Position numbers and translations under genes: made by a program. DNA of 64,000 nucleotides from Armatimonadota bacterium (GTDB lineage Bacteria > Armatimonadota > UBA10988): assembly GCA_016235455.1 (NCBI GenBank), contig JACRKZ010000102.1:7744-71743 (forward strand). The letters run 5' to 3'. Under the pieces are notes generated by a model. The model was not told the origin of the DNA. It searched no databases and worked only from the letters and a program-made list of their open reading frames with translations. Below, piece by piece: positions 22,131 to 28,064 of this stretch. Position 1 is the first letter of the stretch. Each line of letters begins with the position of its first letter.

Positions 22131-22156
22131 GGGTGGCGGCTTGGAGGCGACGAGCA

Positions 22157-24190
22157 GTGCTTCAGTACCTGCGACTAGAGAACGTCGGGCCGGCGCCCGA
22201 GATGGCGTTCGACTTCGCGCCGCGGCTCAATCTGTTGACCGGCGACAACGGGCTGGGCAAGAGCTTCGTGCTGGATGTCGCTTGGTGGGCGCTGACGGGG
22301 ACGTGGGCCAATGGCATCGCGATCCCTCCGGCGGAGGCTGCAGCCCCAGCGATCGCCTTTCGGCACACGTCTGCCGACGCGGGCGCAACGCGGCCCACGC
22401 TCGCTGTCAAGCGCGCTGACTCGGTTGGGCTGGACTGGCCGCAGCTAGCCAGAGCACGACTGCTCGCACACGGCCATGACCAGAACGAGTGGGGGTCCCT
22501 TCTCCCGGCACTGCTAGAGCAACAGGCAGGCGACACCGACCTGTTGGCGACCGGCCGCGCGTGGCTCATGGGCCGCGAAGACCAGGCGGGCTGGAGCCAG
22601 GTCTGGCAGACGCTGCTAGCCATGCAGCCGGGCGACGCCGACCTGTTGGCGACCGGCCGCACGTGGCTCACCGGCCGCGAGAACCGGGCGGAGTGGGCGC
22701 ACGTCTACCAGACGCTGCTGGCGGCGCAGCCGGGCGACGCCGAGCTGTTTGCGACCGGCCGCGCGTGGCTCGCGGGCCGCGACGACCGGGCGGAGTGGAG
22801 CTACGTCTGGCAGACGCTGCTGGCGGCGCAGGCGGGCGACGCCGAACTGTTGGCGACCGGCCGCGCGTGGCTCGCGGGCCGCGAGGACCGGGCGGAGTGG
22901 AGCCACGTCTGGCGGAGGCTGTTGGCGGCGCAGCCGGGCGACACCGACCTGTTGGCGACCGGCCGCGCGTGGCTCATGGGGCGCGAGGAGCAGGCGGGCT
23001 GGAGCCAGGTCTGGCAGACGCTGCTAGCGACGCAGCCGGGCGACACCGGCCTGCCAATGGGCGAGCTGGCGAAACTACTCGGCCAACTAACCCACGTGGG
23101 CGGACGCGCAGAGACCGTGCACGGCGGCCGAGCGGATCTTGCAGGCGGGTCTGCGTCCAGAGGGCCCCGTGCATCAGCTGGCCCGCAAGACCGCCTTGGC
23201 CTGTACGATCGCGCCACGCAGCAATGGAGGATCGGCAAGGCGTTACCCGGCCACGCTGGCCTTGTCGTCTACATGCGGGTGGACGGTGGGTTCGCAGTTT
23301 GGGATCCGCAGCGCAACGCGGTCAGCGCCGACGGGCCGGGGCGGCCACCAGCGTTTGTGTTCACAGCCGATGAGCTGTGGTCGGGCAACTCAGCCTGCGA
23401 AGGCCTGGTACGCGACTGGACGTCTTGGCAGCGCGAAGGAAACAACGCGTTTCAGCTCCTCTCGAGAGTGCTCGAAGAGCTGGCGCCCGCCGCAGAGGAG
23501 CCGCTGGTGCCCGGTGAGCCGCGACGCATAGCCGTGGGCGACCCCAGAGACTACCCGACTCTGCGGATGCCGTACGGCGAAGACGTTCCGGTGGTGCATG
23601 TCTCCGCAGGCATGAAGCGCATTATCAGTCTGGCCTATCTGCTAGTCTGGACTTGGCGTGAACACCAGGAGATATGCCAGTTGCTCGGGCAGCGGCCAAC
23701 TGACGAACTGGTCCTTCTCGTCGATGAGGTCGAGACGCACCTGCATCCACGTTGGCAACGCTGTATCGTACCCGCCCTTCTGACGGTAATGGACACCATC
23801 ACCGCCGGTTGTCGACTTCAGGCCATCGTGGCCACCCACTCGCCGCTGGTCCTCGCCTCGATGGAAGACACCTTCGACACGAGCACCGACCAGGTCTTCG
23901 ACCTGGAGCTGACCGACGGCCAGGTCGAGGTGCGCCGGCTGCCCTACGAGCCGCTGGGCACCGCCGACGACTGGCTGACCTCCGACGCCATCGGCTTGCG
24001 CTCGGCGCGCGGCTCCTTGGTGCAGGAGGCGCTGCTCGAGGAACTGGCGGCAGCCTGGAACGATCCCGCGCTCACCGAACCGCGTTACCGCGAGCTGTCG
24101 GAGAAGCTGGCGTCGTCGTCCATGCGTGACACCGACCCTGTGCGCAGCCGCTGGCTGGCGCTGGGCGAGCGCCGAGGGTTCGTGTCGTGA
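22157..24190 (+). CDS. PtuA-like ABC/SMC-type AAA ATPase (Septu-like defence) with inserted TPR-like repeat array
   Basis: The track ORF starts at GTG 22133. GTG 22157 (MLQYLRLENVGP) has GGAGG 9 nt upstream. Walker A LLTGDNGLGKS (22241-22264), signature-like VSAGMKRIISL, Walker B VLLVDEVETHLHP (23711-23749), ATHSP. Five 34-aa repeats lie between Walker A and the signature motif. Confidence 0.75.
   Translation: MLQYLRLENVGPAPEMAFDFAPRLNLLTGDNGLGKSFVLDVAWWALTGTWANGIAIPPAEAAAPAIAFRHTSADAGATRPTLAVKRADSVGLDWPQLARARLLAHGHDQNEWGSLLPALLEQQAGDTDLLATGRAWLMGREDQAGWSQVWQTLLAMQPGDADLLATGRTWLTGRENRAEWAHVYQTLLAAQPGDAELFATGRAWLAGRDDRAEWSYVWQTLLAAQAGDAELLATGRAWLAGREDRAEWSHVWRRLLAAQPGDTDLLATGRAWLMGREEQAGWSQVWQTLLATQPGDTGLPMGELAKLLGQLTHVGGRAETVHGGRADLAGGSASRGPRASAGPQDRLGLYDRATQQWRIGKALPGHAGLVVYMRVDGGFAVWDPQRNAVSADGPGRPPAFVFTADELWSGNSACEGLVRDWTSWQREGNNAFQLLSRVLEELAPAAEEPLVPGEPRRIAVGDPRDYPTLRMPYGEDVPVVHVSAGMKRIISLAYLLVWTWREHQEICQLLGQRPTDELVLLVDEVETHLHPRWQRCIVPALLTVMDTITAGCRLQAIVATHSPLVLASMEDTFDTSTDQVFDLELTDGQVEVRRLPYEPLGTADDWLTSDAIGLRSARGSLVQEALLEELAAAWNDPALTEPRYRELSEKLASSSMRDTDPVRSRWLALGERRGFVS
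22529..23038 (+). repeat. Tandem repeat, 5 x 102 bp (in frame, 34 aa each), flanked by degenerate partial units
   Basis: Units start at 22529, 22631, 22733, 22835 and 22937. Consensus: GDxDLLATGRAWLxGRxDxAxWSxVWQTLLAxQP. Units 1 and 5 differ at about 5 of 102 nt, and units 3 and 4 at about 8 of 102 nt (hand comparison). Confidence 0.95.
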
Positions 24191-24753
24191 TCCGTGTCAA
24201 ACCAGCACCAGAACCGCCGTCGTTCGACGAGCGAGTTCGCCAACCCGGCTTGGCGCAGTTGCCTGAGCTGAAGCCGCACTGGCGCCGCTGTCTACCCGAC
24301 CTGCTCGCCGCGTACCAGCACATCTGCGCCTACTCGTGCTTCTACATCCATCCGGTCGCCGGCGCGCGTACCGTCGAGCACTTCGGGCCGAAGTCGGCGT
24401 CGCCCGAGCTGGCCTACGAATGGTCGAACTACCGCCTGGTGTGCAGCCTGATGAACAGCCGCAAACAGGCCTTCGACGATGTCCTCGACCCGTTTGAGAT
24501 CGAGAACGGGTGGTTCGTGCTCGACTTCGTGAATTTTGAGGTCCATCCGGACGTTGAGCTGGCCATTGACCACGCCGCCATCCAGGCCACAATCGACCGG
24601 CTCGGACTCAACGACGCGCCCTGCCCGAGCACGCGCCAGCAGGAGTACGAGATGTATGAGCGCGGCGACGCCTCCTGGCGGCATCTCTGTCGCGTCAGCC
24701 CCTTCGTCGCCGCCGAAGTGGAGCGCCAAGGCCTGCGCCGGGCCGGCGACTGA
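24187..24753 (+). CDS. PtuB-like HNH nuclease-family protein
   Basis: The GTG start overlaps the PtuA-like stop (GTGA, 24187-24190). Core ICAYSCFYIHPVAGARTVEHFGPKSASPELAYEWSNYRLVCSLMNSRKQ resembles the CxYCE...EHxxPKS...W.N...C..CNxxK pattern of the HNH partner found next to such ATPases. Confidence 0.65.
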   Translation: MIRVKPAPEPPSFDERVRQPGLAQLPELKPHWRRCLPDLLAAYQHICAYSCFYIHPVAGARTVEHFGPKSASPELAYEWSNYRLVCSLMNSRKQAFDDVLDPFEIENGWFVLDFVNFEVHPDVELAIDHAAIQATIDRLGLNDAPCPSTRQQEYEMYERGDASWRHLCRVSPFVAAEVERQGLRRAGD

Positions 24754-25897: not shown

Positions 25898-26019
25898 GTG
25901 CACCGAGCACGGCCGACTCTCTTTGGTTGTCTCAGAACAAAGAATCCAGAGAACGATGAATCTACATTTACAGCGACGGCACGCATGGCTACATTCGACA
26001 TAGTCGAATGGAGATCGAG

Positions 26020-27606
26020 ATGATATCGTGTCGGACTGGGCTCGCGACGGTGGTTCTGGTCGCGACACTCTCGCCGCTGTCAGCGCAGAACAGCAGCAGT
26101 ACCGGCGGCATCTGCGGCGTCCCGCCGCGCGAAGCCCTGTTGATACTCCGAGAGGCTGGGATGCCGTGGGCACCGTGCAAGGGTTGGGCCGACGTCATGG
26201 CCGCCGGCGGCGGCGAGCCCGGGCTTGACCTGTCGAGCTGGGGCAGCGGACGCACCTGGCGCACGCTCAAGGGCTGGAATCAGGATCTGACGGTCACTCA
26301 GCTCGGTAGCTGGGCGCAGACCTTGCGTGCGCCGGAGCGCGTGGCCAGCATCGAGCGACTCGGAGCCACGGGGCTCCCACAGGCCGTGGACGCACTGGCA
26401 GTGCTGCTTGACTCCAGCGATGTGGGCATCGCCCCGGCCGCAGGCAAGGCCTTGCGCCGACTTGCGGAACGGGGCTTGGTGAAGCCTGACCGGGTGGCGG
26501 ACTGGCTACAGGTCGGCGCCAAGCAAGCCGCAGCGATCAGCGTGGCGGCAGGGGTGAAGGACGAGACTGGCGTTATGGTAGATCGTGTCGCCAGCCTCGT
26601 CCCAGACCTGTTGCTGCGGGCAGACACCACGACCCTGGGTTGTGCGGCGCTGGCGCTGTACCGCAACGGCCGAAGCGAGCAGGTCGATGCTCTGCTCGGG
26701 TCGGGCGCGAAGGGCAGAGACAGGGACCTCGCCTATCAGGCACTCGCCGACATCGCCGGTGACGTGCGCCCCAACGACCTTCACTGGCTGCCCGGCACAT
26801 GGCAGAGCAAGACACGCGCCGATGAGCCTGACGCGTTGGCAGCGGCGGGGCTCCTGCTCCAGGCCAGCCTGGCCGCCCGCGCCGACCCGGCCACCGAGCT
26901 CGCAAGCGCCGCCCTGCTGGACGACCTACTGGCCGCGGACCGACCTGTTTGGCTGCGCGTGCACGTGGCTGACCTGATAGCGCGGCAGGGCCTCCTTGCC
27001 GACTGCCGGCCGCGCCCCGGCGGCGCCACGCTAGGCGAGCACGCCAGCCAGACCCCGGCTGAGATAGTGGCCAGCGGCACGCTGCCAACCGAGTCGATTT
27101 GGTGGCTTGTGTACCACTTCAGTGTGCCCTGCGCGCTCCGCGCGGGGTGGCCACTACCGAACCACACAGGGATCCTCTCATGCAAACCGACGGCAGAGAA
27201 CACCACCTGCGCCGCGCAATGCCGGGCCATCGGCAAGCTGGCCAAGGAGCGAGGTGAGCACATCGTCGCCCGGTACGTCGAGTTGAACGCAGGCACCCAG
27301 CATGCCGCCTGCGGTGTGTTGCTCCGCGACTCATCGTGCGACAAAGCCTGGGATCAGGAGTTCGTGCTCGTTCGCCTGGCCCACACCGCTTGTGCCGAGG
27401 CAAGGACGTTCGCGCGCTGCGTCGAGCTCAACTACGTCAAGCCCGACACGGTCGGCGCCATTGACGTACTTGCATTGTCGTACAGCTGGCACAACGGCAG
27501 GTACGAACTGGTGACGACGGCAAGCGGCGCTGTTGCGCGGAACGCTTTCGCGCGTATGGTCACAAACAATCTCGGCCACCTGAACTGGAAGGAGACGGAC
27601 ACATGA
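26020..27606 (+). CDS. Secreted hypothetical protein, HEAT-like repeat segment plus Cys-rich C-terminal domain
   Basis: ATG 26020 (GGAGA 5 nt upstream; alternative ATG at 26008) gives MISCRTGLATVVLVATLSPLSAQ. HEAT-like IERLGATGLPQAVDALAVLLDSSDVGIAPAAGKALRRL. The C-terminal ~150 aa contain 8 Cys. A lower-GC patch lies upstream. Confidence 0.7.
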   Translation: MISCRTGLATVVLVATLSPLSAQNSSSTGGICGVPPREALLILREAGMPWAPCKGWADVMAAGGGEPGLDLSSWGSGRTWRTLKGWNQDLTVTQLGSWAQTLRAPERVASIERLGATGLPQAVDALAVLLDSSDVGIAPAAGKALRRLAERGLVKPDRVADWLQVGAKQAAAISVAAGVKDETGVMVDRVASLVPDLLLRADTTTLGCAALALYRNGRSEQVDALLGSGAKGRDRDLAYQALADIAGDVRPNDLHWLPGTWQSKTRADEPDALAAAGLLLQASLAARADPATELASAALLDDLLAADRPVWLRVHVADLIARQGLLADCRPRPGGATLGEHASQTPAEIVASGTLPTESIWWLVYHFSVPCALRAGWPLPNHTGILSCKPTAENTTCAAQCRAIGKLAKERGEHIVARYVELNAGTQHAACGVLLRDSSCDKAWDQEFVLVRLAHTACAEARTFARCVELNYVKPDTVGAIDVLALSYSWHNGRYELVTTASGAVARNAFARMVTNNLGHLNWKETDT

Positions 27607-28064
27607 GTGGTACTGCACCGACAGTGATCAGCCGCCGTGCGGGCCGCAAGCGCCTCACCAGCGCTCTCGGCCTGGGCTGCGTCGTTGCGGCGGTCTGCGG
27701 CCTGGCGGCGAGTCTCTATAACCGCGACCACGACATTGTGCGGCTCGCGCAGGCCATCCTGCCAGCCTTCCTGCCCGCGCTCTCGGCCTTGGTGCCACTG
27801 GTGCTGACCCCGCAGAAGGACGACGATGAGCCGCTACCTGATGGGGCCTTGTCGCTGGCCCTGGGTATCTGCGTCATCTACTCGACCGCCTGGTGTGTGC
27901 TGGCCGCGTGCTCCTACACGCTCGATGATCTCGGAGTCGGGCAGCGGCCCCACTTCGACAGCGCCGTGGCGCTGCTCTCAACCATCGGCCAGTCGGTGGT
28001 GGTCGGCATGGTGGTCACGAGTTTGGGCGGCGCGGCGAAGGCCGTCACTCCGCCGGGCAAGTAG
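27603..28064 (+). CDS. Small integral membrane protein (about 4 TM helices)
   Basis: The ATG overlaps the upstream stop (ATGA, 27603-27606). Hydrophobic segments: LGLGCVVAAVCGLAASLY, AILPAFLPALSALVPLVL, LSLALGICVIYSTAWCVLAACSY, ALLSTIGQSVVVGMVVTSLGG. Confidence 0.7.
   Translation: MSGTAPTVISRRAGRKRLTSALGLGCVVAAVCGLAASLYNRDHDIVRLAQAILPAFLPALSALVPLVLTPQKDDDEPLPDGALSLALGICVIYSTAWCVLAACSYTLDDLGVGQRPHFDSAVALLSTIGQSVVVGMVVTSLGGAAKAVTPPGK

What the first reader, a model, noticed from the sequence alone, without database searches (positions are those of the whole stretch)
22529..23038. Five near-identical 102-bp (34-aa) TPR-like repeats inserted into the ATPase head of the PtuA-like protein
Between Walker A and the signature motif the ORF contains 5 complete in-frame units of GDxDLLATGRAWLxGRxDxAxWSxVWQTLLAxQP. 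They are flanked by degenerate half-units (NEWGSLLPALLEQQA upstream, GDTGLPMGELAKLL downstream). The pattern is helix-turn-helix-turn with a 34-residue period, the TPR period, so it suggests an alpha-solenoid. By hand comparison, units 1 and 5 differ at about 5 of 102 nt and units 3 and 4 at about 8 of 102 nt. That implies recent duplication or gene conversion and potential copy-number variation. Repeat solenoids are the sensor modules of NLR/Avs-type defence proteins. A solenoid grafted into a Septu-type ATPase would be an unusual sensor-effector hybrid.
Basis: partly seen in the sequence, partly recalled or inferred. Interest (0 to 1): 0.7.

Follow-up and report, generated by a model that had tools for sequence, protein, structure and literature searches.

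The report
NLR-type repeat solenoid inside Septu ATPase
A bacterial anti-phage ATPase (Septu PtuA) carries, in one surface loop, a helical repeat domain otherwise found in the sensor region of NLR-like immune proteins, so recognition modules may be swappable between unrelated immune machines.

Summary
Window 22529-23038 contains five in-frame 102-bp units (TRF: 5.1 copies, 87% match).

The host gene is a Septu PtuA ATPase (PADLOC E 4.7e-143). It is translationally coupled to a PtuB HNH nuclease.

All 119 closest homologues have an 8-17 residue loop where this protein has 277 residues. The insert is therefore neither a conserved feature nor a coiled-coil equivalent.

AlphaFold2 predicts a confident alpha-solenoid (insert alone: pLDDT 88, pTM 0.80). 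Two disordered linkers tether it to the ATPase core.

An exhaustive HMMER search finds the same repeat family in 346 representative proteins. Most are 1000-2000 aa nSTAND5-type STAND NTPases with TIR, Fic, nuclease or S1 domains. None of the 150 listed is PtuA-like.

The repeat family shows whole-unit copy-number differences between otherwise identical alleles in public assemblies.

Most likely this is an NLR-type sensor or regulatory array grafted into the loop between Walker A and the putative Q-loop of PtuA. Its function is inferred, not shown. The gene is a singleton from one metagenome-assembled genome.

Verdict: a new variant of a known kind, of moderately high interest.

The parts
22157..24190 (+). 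ptuA coding sequence (Septu ABC-type ATPase). The ORF opens at GTG 22133. The likely start is GTG 22157, the start used in the public record (P0001, 677 aa).
   Evidence: ORF. (PADLOC PtuA PDLC00307, E 4.7e-143). (Pfam AAA_21, AAA_15). (identical public protein P0001). (Foldseek best hits are solved PtuA structures).
22241..22264 (+). Walker A motif GDNGLGKS (aa 37-44).
   Evidence: K43 is invariant in 120 of 120 sequences.
22379..22432 (+). N-terminal linker of the insert (aa 83-100), predicted disordered.
   Evidence: pLDDT below 50 for 83-100. Absent from all homologues.
22427..22528 (+). Degenerate N-cap repeat unit (aa 99-132, GLDWPQLARARLLAHGHDQNEWGSLLPALLEQQA), two helices.
   Evidence: weak match to the unit. 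(helices 102-112 and 120-130).
22529..23038 (+). Five near-identical 102-bp / 34-aa units (aa 133-302). Each unit is helix A (positions 3-13), an 8-residue loop (14-21), helix B (22-32) and a QPGD turn.
   Evidence: TRF. (unit comparison). (pLDDT above 90 in the central units). (repeat family in STAND NTPases).
23039..23089 (+). C-cap half unit (aa 303-319, GDTGLPMGELAKLLGQL), one helix.
23090..23182 (+). C-terminal linker of the insert (aa 320-350), predicted disordered.
   Evidence: pLDDT below 50 for 319-348. Absent from homologues.
23276..23278 (+). Arg382 at the near-invariant Gln of the YAQVDGG motif (putative Q-loop). R occurs only in this protein among the 120 aligned.
   Evidence: Q in 116 of 120, R in 1. 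That this motif is the Q-loop is inferred from its position after the core strand.
23603..23617 (+). Signature-like motif SAGMK (aa 491-495).
   Evidence: S491 and G493 invariant.
23711..23728 (+). Walker B VLLVDE (aa 527-532), including the catalytic Glu532.
   Evidence: D531 and E532 in 120 of 120.
23837..23839 (+). H-loop His569.
   Evidence: H in 120 of 120.
24187..24753 (+). ptuB (HNH nuclease partner, 188 aa). Its GTG start overlaps the ptuA stop (GTGA).
   Evidence: (PADLOC PtuB PDLC00348, E 3.1e-64). (weak matches to TIGR02646 and NF041761). (4-nt overlap).

Best explanation
The array is a real, in-frame, independently folding alpha-solenoid. It has about seven helical hairpins: an N-cap, five near-identical 34-residue units and a C-cap. 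Two flexible linkers of roughly 18 and 30 residues splice it into a short surface loop of the N-terminal lobe of a stand-alone Septu PtuA ATPase. The loop lies between the Walker A helix and the putative Q-loop.

The repeat belongs to the family that forms the C-terminal repeat arrays of nSTAND5-type (NLR-like) STAND NTPases. The module was most likely acquired from such a gene, or from a shared pool. It was then amplified or homogenised in place by unequal recombination or gene conversion.

Inferred mechanism: the solenoid is a ligand-binding (sensor or regulatory) module displayed on each PtuA subunit. Binding of a phage-derived molecule would change PtuA nucleotide state or oligomer geometry. 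That change would license the partner HNH nuclease PtuB. On this reading an NLR-type recognition module is wired to an ABC-ATPase/HNH effector chassis.

Shown here: the anatomy, the fold prediction, the homology of both parts, and the uniqueness of the combination. Inferred: the direction of transfer, ligand binding, and coupling to PtuB.
For: **Host system**
- PtuA E 4.7e-143 and PtuB E 3.1e-64 in PADLOC.
- The genes overlap by 4 nt.
- Solved PtuA structures are the top Foldseek hits.
- All catalytic motifs except the putative Q-loop Gln are intact.

**The insert is lineage-specific**
- The 119 best homologues are 396-456 aa, with 8-17 residues at the site against 277 here.
- A PtuA carrying both parts should have scored above 500 bits. 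Only two insert-less proteins did.

**Fold**
- Full-length model: core pLDDT above 90, insert 70-88, flanking linkers below 50.
- Insert-only model: pLDDT 88, pTM 0.80, 13 regular helices.

**Repeat family**
- 346 representative proteins at E up to 1e-3, and 83 at E up to 1e-30.
- 27 of 38 sampled carry nSTAND_NTPase5 and 12 of 38 carry S1. TIR, Fic and Mrr nuclease domains also occur.
- Genomic examples in Pseudomonas and Acidobacteriota are nSTAND5 proteins.
- None of the 150 listed proteins is PtuA-like.

**In-place amplification or homogenisation**
- The units are 68-94% identical to each other but at most 76% identical to any unit elsewhere.
- Units 1 and 5 differ by 5 nt.

**Scaffold kept**
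- Positions that vary among the five units are the family-variable ones (entropy 2.44 against 1.46 bits, P=0.01).

**Precedents from the literature**
- Retron-type PtuA gained lineage-specific elements in the ATPase domain that bind its ligand (PMC12819146; PMC12475279).
- A STAND protein (Avs7) and a non-STAND protein (Dsr1) share a homologous TPR-like sensor (PMC13581612).
Against: - The gene is a singleton. One protein on one contig of one metagenome-assembled genome carries it, so there is no evolutionary replication.
- The locus is not in a defence island. Its neighbours are a sulfatase, a LamG-domain protein and a URO-D-like gene.
- The near-invariant Gln of the putative Q-loop is Arg only here. 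This could mean decay rather than re-tuning.
- Differences between units give pN/pS near 1, which does not differ from neutrality (P=0.29). There is no positive evidence for selection acting in the PtuA context.
- No ligand, oligomer model or interface was computed. The orientation of the solenoid relative to the core is not predicted with confidence (full-length pTM 0.64).
- The copy number rests on a short-read assembly that could not be re-examined.
Confidence: 0.55

Rival explanations
1. The solenoid is not a phage sensor. It is a regulatory or assembly element: an autoinhibitory lid over the nucleotide- or nucleic-acid-binding face, or an extra oligomerisation or scaffold surface that changes PtuA stoichiometry.
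For: - In retron-type PtuA, acquired inserts such as the helical flap (PMC12819146; called the IS2 coiled coil in PMC12475279) mainly determine oligomer state and enclose the msDNA, while the m loop/IS1 contacts the msDNA.
- The insert lies in the Walker A to Q-loop segment of the ATPase lobe, whose loops face the bound nucleic acid in retron PtuA.
- The unique Q382R change suggests altered nucleotide handling.
- Alpha-solenoids are generic protein-protein interaction scaffolds.
Against: - In its usual hosts the repeat family occupies the position taken by sensor domains in STAND NTPases. Recent work shows that such arrays bind phage proteins directly (PMC13581612).
- Long disordered tethers of about 18 and 30 residues fit a displayed domain better than a rigid lid.
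Confidence: 0.22
2. The insertion is a recent, neutral or mildly deleterious accident in a decaying or orphaned Septu gene. A piece of a repeat gene was captured by illegitimate recombination and has no adaptive role.
For: - The gene is a singleton among 5.8 billion clustered proteins.
- pN/pS between units is about 1.
- The near-invariant Gln382 is lost only here.
- The locus is isolated among housekeeping or carbohydrate-active genes.
Against: - The 2-kb reading frame is intact, and ptuB is intact and translationally coupled.
- The insertion falls exactly in a surface loop, has flexible linkers on both sides, and has complete N- and C-caps.
- Scaffold residues are strictly preserved in all five units, and variation is confined to family-variable positions.
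- All other ATPase motifs are intact.
Confidence: 0.15
3. The array, or its copy number, is an assembly artefact. It could be a chimeric join, or a collapse or expansion of repeats in a short-read metagenome assembly.
For: - The source is a metagenome-assembled genome with one contig on record.
- In a relative (the P0128 cluster), alleles identical outside the array differ by whole units across assemblies. This could partly reflect collapse.
Against: - The insert is flanked on both sides by collinear PtuA sequence in one frame.
- All five units are distinct, and the longest exact repeat is 44 bp, so de Bruijn paths with k above 44 are unambiguous.
- GC and GC3 are close to those of the surrounding genome.
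Confidence: 0.06

Closest known systems
Type I (stand-alone) Septu PtuA-PtuB, e.g. E. coli PtuAB (PDB 8EE4/8EEA)
   Same: An ABC-type ATPase with Walker A, signature, Walker B and H-loop, followed by a coupled HNH nuclease gene. There are strong PADLOC PtuA/PtuB matches and the top Foldseek hits are PtuA structures. There is no reverse transcriptase or ncRNA nearby.
   Different: It belongs to a compact PtuA clade of about 416 aa (PADLOC PDLC00307) and carries a 277-residue solenoid insert that is absent from all 119 closest relatives. The putative Q-loop Gln is replaced by Arg.
Retron type I-A (Ec78/Eco7, Ec83) PtuA
   Same: It shows the same evolutionary principle. Lineage-specific elements added to the conserved ATPase core (N-terminal extension, m loop/IS1, helical flap/IS2) create the ligand-binding surface (PMC12819146; PMC12475279).
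   Different: Those elements are short loops or coiled coils that bind msDNA or RT. Here the element is a folded repeat domain of NLR type and there is no retron. The NCBIfam PtuA equivalog model scores 53 bits against a cut-off of 500.
nSTAND5-type STAND NTPases with C-terminal repeat arrays (e.g. P0122, P0127; Pseudomonas sp. GD04091 locus L001)
   Same: The repeat family is the same (E down to 1e-174; unit consensus GDxxLxxxGRxWLxGREDRPEWxYVWQxLL). Identity between units within one protein is high, and the commonest period is 34 residues.
   Different: Those proteins have a STAND NTPase, 6-20 units at the C-terminus, and often TIR, Fic, nuclease or S1 domains. Here five units sit inside an ABC ATPase, with no STAND domain and no S1 domain.
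Avs7 / Dsr1 shared sensor (PMC13581612)
   Same: It is a precedent for one homologous alpha-helical repeat sensor serving both a STAND and a non-STAND defence protein.
   Different: The repeat family is different and the recipient chassis differs (a SIR2 protein against an ABC ATPase). In those proteins the sensor is a terminal domain rather than an internal loop insertion, and its ligand is known.
Highly internally conserved repeats of fungal NLRs (e.g. Podospora TPR-like repeats, PDB 4Y6W)
   Different: Different kingdom, 42-residue TPR-like units, and no sequence relationship was shown.

Membership tests
Septu (PtuA/PtuB) | PtuA: ABC/SMC-like ATPase matching PtuA profiles | tested here: met
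   PADLOC PDLC00307 E 4.7e-143 over both halves. Pfam AAA_21 and AAA_15 match. Solved PtuA structures are the best Foldseek hits.
Septu (PtuA/PtuB) | Adjacent, co-oriented PtuB HNH nuclease gene | tested here: met
   ORF 24187-24753, PADLOC PtuB PDLC00348 E 3.1e-64. It overlaps the ptuA stop by 4 nt.
Septu (PtuA/PtuB) | Intact ATPase motifs (Walker A, Q-loop, signature, Walker B, H-loop) | tested here: inconclusive
   Walker A, the signature-like motif, Walker B DE and the H-loop His are intact. The near-invariant Gln of YAQVDGG is Arg here. That this is the Q-loop is inferred, not shown.
Septu (PtuA/PtuB) | Confers phage resistance | not testable with these tools
   Needs a plaque or growth assay.
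Retron type I-A PtuA (NCBIfam NF041760 equivalog) | Score above the equivalog cut-off, and an associated RT plus ncRNA | tested here: not met
   53 bits against a cut-off of 500. No Rfam family in 15-30 kb. The neighbours are a sulfatase, a LamG-domain protein and a URO-D-like gene.
Tetratricopeptide repeat (TPR) | Match to TPR sequence profiles | tested here: not met
   Only TPR_24 appears, at E 0.4 and 10.8 bits against a cut-off of 27.
Tetratricopeptide repeat (TPR) | 34-residue helix-turn-helix unit with TPR superhelical packing | tested here: inconclusive
nSTAND5-associated repeat family (unnamed; not in Pfam) | Significant sequence similarity of the units to the arrays of nSTAND5 proteins | tested here: met
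   346 representative proteins at E up to 1e-3, best 3e-174. 27 of 38 sampled carry PF25199. The nearest unit is 76% identical.
STAND / NLR-like (Avs-type) defence NTPases | STAND NTPase domain (NACHT, NB-ARC or nSTAND) in the same protein | tested here: not met
   Pfam, NCBIfam and PADLOC find only ABC-type ATPase domains in the 685-aa protein. It shares the repeat module but is not a STAND protein.
Highly internally conserved (HIC), copy-number-variable NLR repeats | High inter-unit identity and unit-number polymorphism between alleles | tested here: inconclusive
   Inter-unit identity is 68-94% at the amino-acid level. Polymorphism of 9/7/6/4/4/2 units is seen in a relative, the P0128 cluster. 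No second allele of this gene exists in the databases.

The most novel reading that the evidence does not exclude
Recognition arrays of NLR-like STAND proteins are portable cassettes that can be spliced into a surface loop of an unrelated immune ATPase. In this Septu, the grafted solenoid would bind a phage component directly and gate PtuA assembly or nucleotide state. That step would in turn gate the PtuB nuclease. Repeat-unit turnover would provide rapid retargeting. This would be the first ABC-ATPase defence system with an NLR-type, copy-number-evolvable sensor. It would also give a natural template for reprogramming Septu specificity by swapping repeat arrays.
Probability: 0.3. Interest if true: 0.75.

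Novelty: new variant of a known kind. Interest (0 to 1): 0.58.

Why it matters
How stand-alone Septu senses infection is still poorly understood. The cited papers differ: PMC12475279 calls the viral activator unknown, while PMC12819146 cites sensitisation by the phage tail fibre.

A PtuA that carries a recognisable NLR-type repeat array offers a concrete and testable handle on that question:
- delete or swap the array;
- pull down its ligand;
- test whether PtuA assembly and PtuB activity respond.

More broadly, this extends the emerging idea that sensor modules are shared between STAND and non-STAND defence proteins. Here the recipient is an ABC/SMC-like ATPase, and the graft is an internal loop insertion rather than a terminal fusion. 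It also flags a large uncatalogued repeat family, absent from Pfam and with a variable 34-44 residue period. That family shows unit-number differences between otherwise identical alleles.

Tried and rejected
1. **Word-indexed search with the repeat region.** It returned one weak hit and missed even the protein itself. I discarded it in favour of the exhaustive HMMER search.
2. **Pfam, NCBIfam and PADLOC scans of the repeat alone.** There were no meaningful hits. The TetR_C_28 and NTase_sub_bind matches are below cut-off and were judged to be chance.
3. **Locus search with an alignment of repeats.** The single-protein version gave six loci, none from the source organism.
4. **Mapping the insertion site onto solved PtuA structures by sequence profile.** The alignments cover only Walker A and the Walker B region, so equivalence to the 'm loop' or IS1 remains an inference.
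5. **Test for diversifying selection among units.** pN/pS is about 1 and does not differ from neutrality (P=0.29), so I make no positive-selection claim.
6. **Search for target-site-duplication-like direct repeats flanking the insert.** Nothing exceeded chance, so there is no sign of transposon-type insertion.
7. **Retron hypothesis.** Rejected: no Rfam hit and no RT neighbour.
8. **Alternative-frame ORFs across the array.** These are by-products of GC-rich repeats.
9. **AFDB Foldseek library.** It was unavailable.
10. **Papers not held.** These were Li et al. 2024 on the Septu structure and Krishnan et al. 2020 on ABC ATPase classification.
Full report
**1. The observation**

Tandem Repeats Finder reports a single array at window 22529-23053: period 102, 5.1 copies, 87% matches, no indels. 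The units lie in frame in the ORF 22133..24190(+), 685 aa. They translate to GDxDLLATGRAWLxGRxDxAxWSxVWQTLLAxQP.

Units 1 and 5 differ at 5 of 102 nt and units 3 and 4 at 8 of 102 nt. Other pairs differ at 13-19 nt.

A diverged unit precedes the array (aa 99-132) and a half unit follows it (aa 303-319). No other copy exists in the 64-kb window at protein or DNA level.

The longest exact DNA repeat within the array is 44 bp, between units 1 and 5. The five units are thus distinguishable by any assembler using k above 44. The copy number still cannot be verified without reads.

**2. The host gene**

The 685-aa protein matches the PADLOC PtuA profile PDLC00307 at E 4.7e-143. The next ORF (24187-24753, 188 aa) matches PtuB PDLC00348 at E 3.1e-64. 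Pfam finds AAA_21, AAA_15 and AAA_23.

The ptuB GTG start overlaps the ptuA stop in the sequence GTGA, which indicates translational coupling.

The identical protein is in public databases as 'MAG: AAA family ATPase [Armatimonadetes bacterium]'. That record is 677 aa, on one contig of 72.6 kb, and starts at the GTG at 22157.

Foldseek of the full-length AlphaFold2 model against the PDB returns retron type I-A and E. coli Septu PtuA structures first.

The neighbours are a sulfatase, a LamG-domain protein on the opposite strand and a URO-D-like gene. There is no reverse transcriptase and no Rfam match. This is therefore a stand-alone (type I) Septu pair and it is not in a defence island. The retron-type PtuA equivalog model is not met: 53 bits against a cut-off of 500.

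**3. The insert is lineage-specific**

- The 119 best homologues out of 5.8 billion clustered proteins are 396-456 aa. The closest are 64%, 61% and 55% identical over the alignment.
- In the alignment they have 8-17 residues between the strand after the Walker A helix (I.FRYTK) and the next strand. This protein has 277 residues there.
- A homologue carrying both the PtuA core and the repeats should have scored well above 500 bits. Only two insert-less proteins did.
- No PtuA-like protein is present among the 150 best repeat-bearing proteins.

The insert is thus neither conserved nor a coiled-coil equivalent. It lies before the YAQVDGG motif, which I take to be the Q-loop from its position. That places it in the Walker A to Q-loop segment of the N-terminal lobe. 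The coiled coil (IS2) of SMC-like ATPases emerges at a different site.

In retron type I-A ATPases, this general segment contributes the flexible loops that face the bound msDNA. Those loops are called 'IS1' in PMC12475279 and the 'm loop' and helix-grip loops in PMC12819146. Exact equivalence could not be established, because profile alignments to solved chains cover only the Walker A and Walker B regions.

**4. Fold**

The full-length model was built on a 120-sequence alignment and has mean pLDDT 83. The ATPase core is above 90 and the insert is 70-88. Residues 83-100 and 319-348 fall below 50, so the insert has two disordered tethers.

A model of the insert alone was built on an alignment with homologous arrays. 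It has pLDDT 88 and pTM 0.80, with 13 regular helices of about 11 residues. Each unit consists of:
- helix A (positions 3-13);
- an 8-residue loop (positions 14-21);
- helix B (positions 22-32);
- a QPGD turn.

A solenoid is therefore well supported. 'TPR' is not:
- No Pfam TPR model reaches its threshold.
- Foldseek's best PDB hits are TPR proteins, but only at E at least 5e-3 and TM about 0.26.

**5. What the repeat is**

The word-indexed search failed. The exhaustive HMMER search of 1.84 billion representatives found 346 proteins at E up to 1e-3 and 83 at E up to 1e-30. Most are 1000-2000 aa, with the match in the C-terminal half.

Domain content of these proteins:
- Among 38 sampled, 27 carry Pfam nSTAND_NTPase5 and 12 carry S1 RNA-binding domains.
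- Others have TIR, Mrr-type nuclease or NACHT-associated domains.
- The top hits include TIR-nSTAND5 (P0123) and nSTAND5-repeats-Fic (P0127).
- Loci in Pseudomonas sp. GD04091 and an Acidobacteriota genome encode nSTAND5 proteins with these repeats.
- Shorter hits are mostly repeat-plus-S1 fragments.

The unit consensus is GDxxLxxxGRxWLxGREDRPEWxYVWQxLL. The family period varies: 34 is the commonest, followed by 40, 35 and 39, up to 44. Proteins hold a median of 6 and up to 20 units.

This protein shares its repeat family with NLR-like STAND NTPases but lacks a STAND domain.

**6. Evolution of the array**

The five units are 68-94% identical to each other. They are at most 76% identical to any unit elsewhere; the best match is unit 4 against P0127. 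This fits amplification or homogenisation in place after acquisition.

Units 1 and 5 sit at opposite ends of the array yet differ by only 5 nt. That points to a recent conversion or duplication event.

Differences between units are mostly non-synonymous. Nei-Gojobori pN/pS is 0.8-2.6 for most pairs (0.21 for units 1 and 5). The count of unique substitutions is 6 synonymous against 25 non-synonymous, which does not differ from neutral expectation (P=0.29). I therefore claim no positive selection.

The positions that vary among the five units are the positions that vary across the family (mean entropy 2.44 against 1.46 bits, Mann-Whitney P=0.01). The scaffold residues (G1, D2, L5, G9, W12, L13, G15, R16, W22, V25, L29, L30) are untouched.

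There is no flanking direct repeat of the kind a transposon would leave.

In a relative, the P0128 cluster, seven assemblies encode proteins that are nearly 100% identical outside the array (one member carries a few substitutions). They carry 9, 9, 7, 6, 4, 4 and 2 units of 39 aa. This is copy-number polymorphism, assembly collapse, or both. No second allele of the PtuA gene exists against which to test it.

**7. Mechanism**

Shown:
- an intact PtuA-PtuB pair;
- a confidently predicted solenoid on flexible tethers in a surface loop;
- homology of the solenoid to the repeat arrays of NLR-like NTPases;
- uniqueness of the combination.

Inferred: the solenoid acts as a ligand-binding sensor or regulatory module. 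Its occupancy would alter PtuA nucleotide state or oligomer geometry and so PtuB nuclease activity.

Two published precedents make this plausible:
- Retron-type PtuA proteins acquired lineage-specific elements in the ATPase domain that bind their controlling ligand and reset the oligomeric state (PMC12819146; PMC12475279).
- A STAND protein (Avs7) and a non-STAND protein (Dsr1) share a homologous helical-repeat sensor that binds phage capsid protein (PMC13581612).

One further detail may be connected. The Gln of YAQVDGG is present in 116 of 120 family members. It is Arg only in this protein. This could reflect re-tuned ATP handling or the beginning of decay.

**8. Rivals**

- **Regulatory or assembly role without direct sensing (0.22).** This fits the retron precedents, where the inserts set stoichiometry.
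- **Neutral or deleterious recent insertion in an orphaned gene (0.15).** The singleton status, pN/pS near 1 and Q382R favour it. The intact frame, the coupled ptuB, the loop placement with linkers and caps, and the preserved scaffold argue against it.
- **Assembly artefact (0.06).** Collinear in-frame flanks and the absence of any exact repeat over 44 bp argue against it. Only reads can settle the question.

**9. Verdict**

The fold is a generic alpha-solenoid of the nSTAND5-associated repeat family rather than a canonical TPR. The insertion site is the Walker A to Q-loop loop rather than the coiled-coil site.

I found no description of a PtuA with such a repeat insert in the searchable literature. 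I rate it a new variant of a known kind. Its interest is moderately high because it offers a testable handle on Septu sensing and extends sensor-module sharing to an ABC-type ATPase. That interest is tempered because this is a single gene from one metagenome-assembled genome with no functional data.

Noticed in passing
window 23276-23278 (aa 382 of PtuA): The Gln of the YAQVDGG motif (putative Q-loop) is present in 116 of 120 family members. It is Arg only in this insert-bearing protein. The neighbouring Ala (117 of 120) is Met here. This may indicate altered ATP hydrolysis or early decay.
   Followed up: partly
P0128 cluster (proteins P0128, P0274, P0283, P0284, P0281, P0285, P0286; not in the window): Seven assemblies encode an nSTAND5-like protein that is nearly 100% identical outside its array (one member has a few substitutions) but carries 9, 9, 7, 6, 4, 4 and 2 units of 39 aa. 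This is repeat-number polymorphism, assembly collapse, or both, in the same repeat family.
   Followed up: yes
repeat-bearing proteins (e.g. L001:3616-7935, P0190, P0221, P0251): About a third of the proteins with this repeat family end in one to three S1 RNA-binding domains after the array. This suggests that the usual nSTAND5 sensor region may engage RNA or a nucleoprotein.
   Followed up: partly
PADLOC profile PDLC00270 against window 22133-24190: A second PtuA profile (627 positions) aligns its positions 299-624 to aa 358-682. This implies a PtuA subfamily with roughly 215 extra residues ahead of the same point. It may be another insertion at this loop, or an N-terminal extension. No sequences were available to resolve it.
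   Followed up: no
window 23400-24750 against the window as a whole: The C-terminal half of ptuA dips to 60-65% GC in 300-nt windows at 23400-23999, and ptuB is 65% GC overall. The whole window is 70% and the repeat array 74-78% (GC3 0.97). This hints that the Septu pair was acquired horizontally and that the insert has a different compositional history, or simply an Ala/Gly/Arg/Trp-rich composition.
   Followed up: partly
(tool behaviour): The word-indexed protein search with the repeat region returned one weak hit and missed the query's own protein. The exhaustive HMMER search found 346 relatives. Repeat-rich, Ala-rich queries seem to saturate the candidate pre-filter.
   Followed up: no
window 26008-27606 (+) and 27603-28064 (+): Two co-oriented ORFs (532 aa and 153 aa, 4-nt overlap) about 1.3 kb downstream of ptuB, beyond the URO-D-like gene, have no Pfam match. 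The first begins with a signal-peptide-like segment. No link to Septu was established.
   Followed up: no
window 22133-22157: The ORF opens at GTG 22133. Homologues and the public record start at the GTG at 22157 (MLQYLRLENV). The divergent upstream 1184-aa gene probably also starts downstream of its first ATG, at the signal peptide MANRSAVLLLL. That would leave an intergenic promoter region of about 110 bp.
   Followed up: partly
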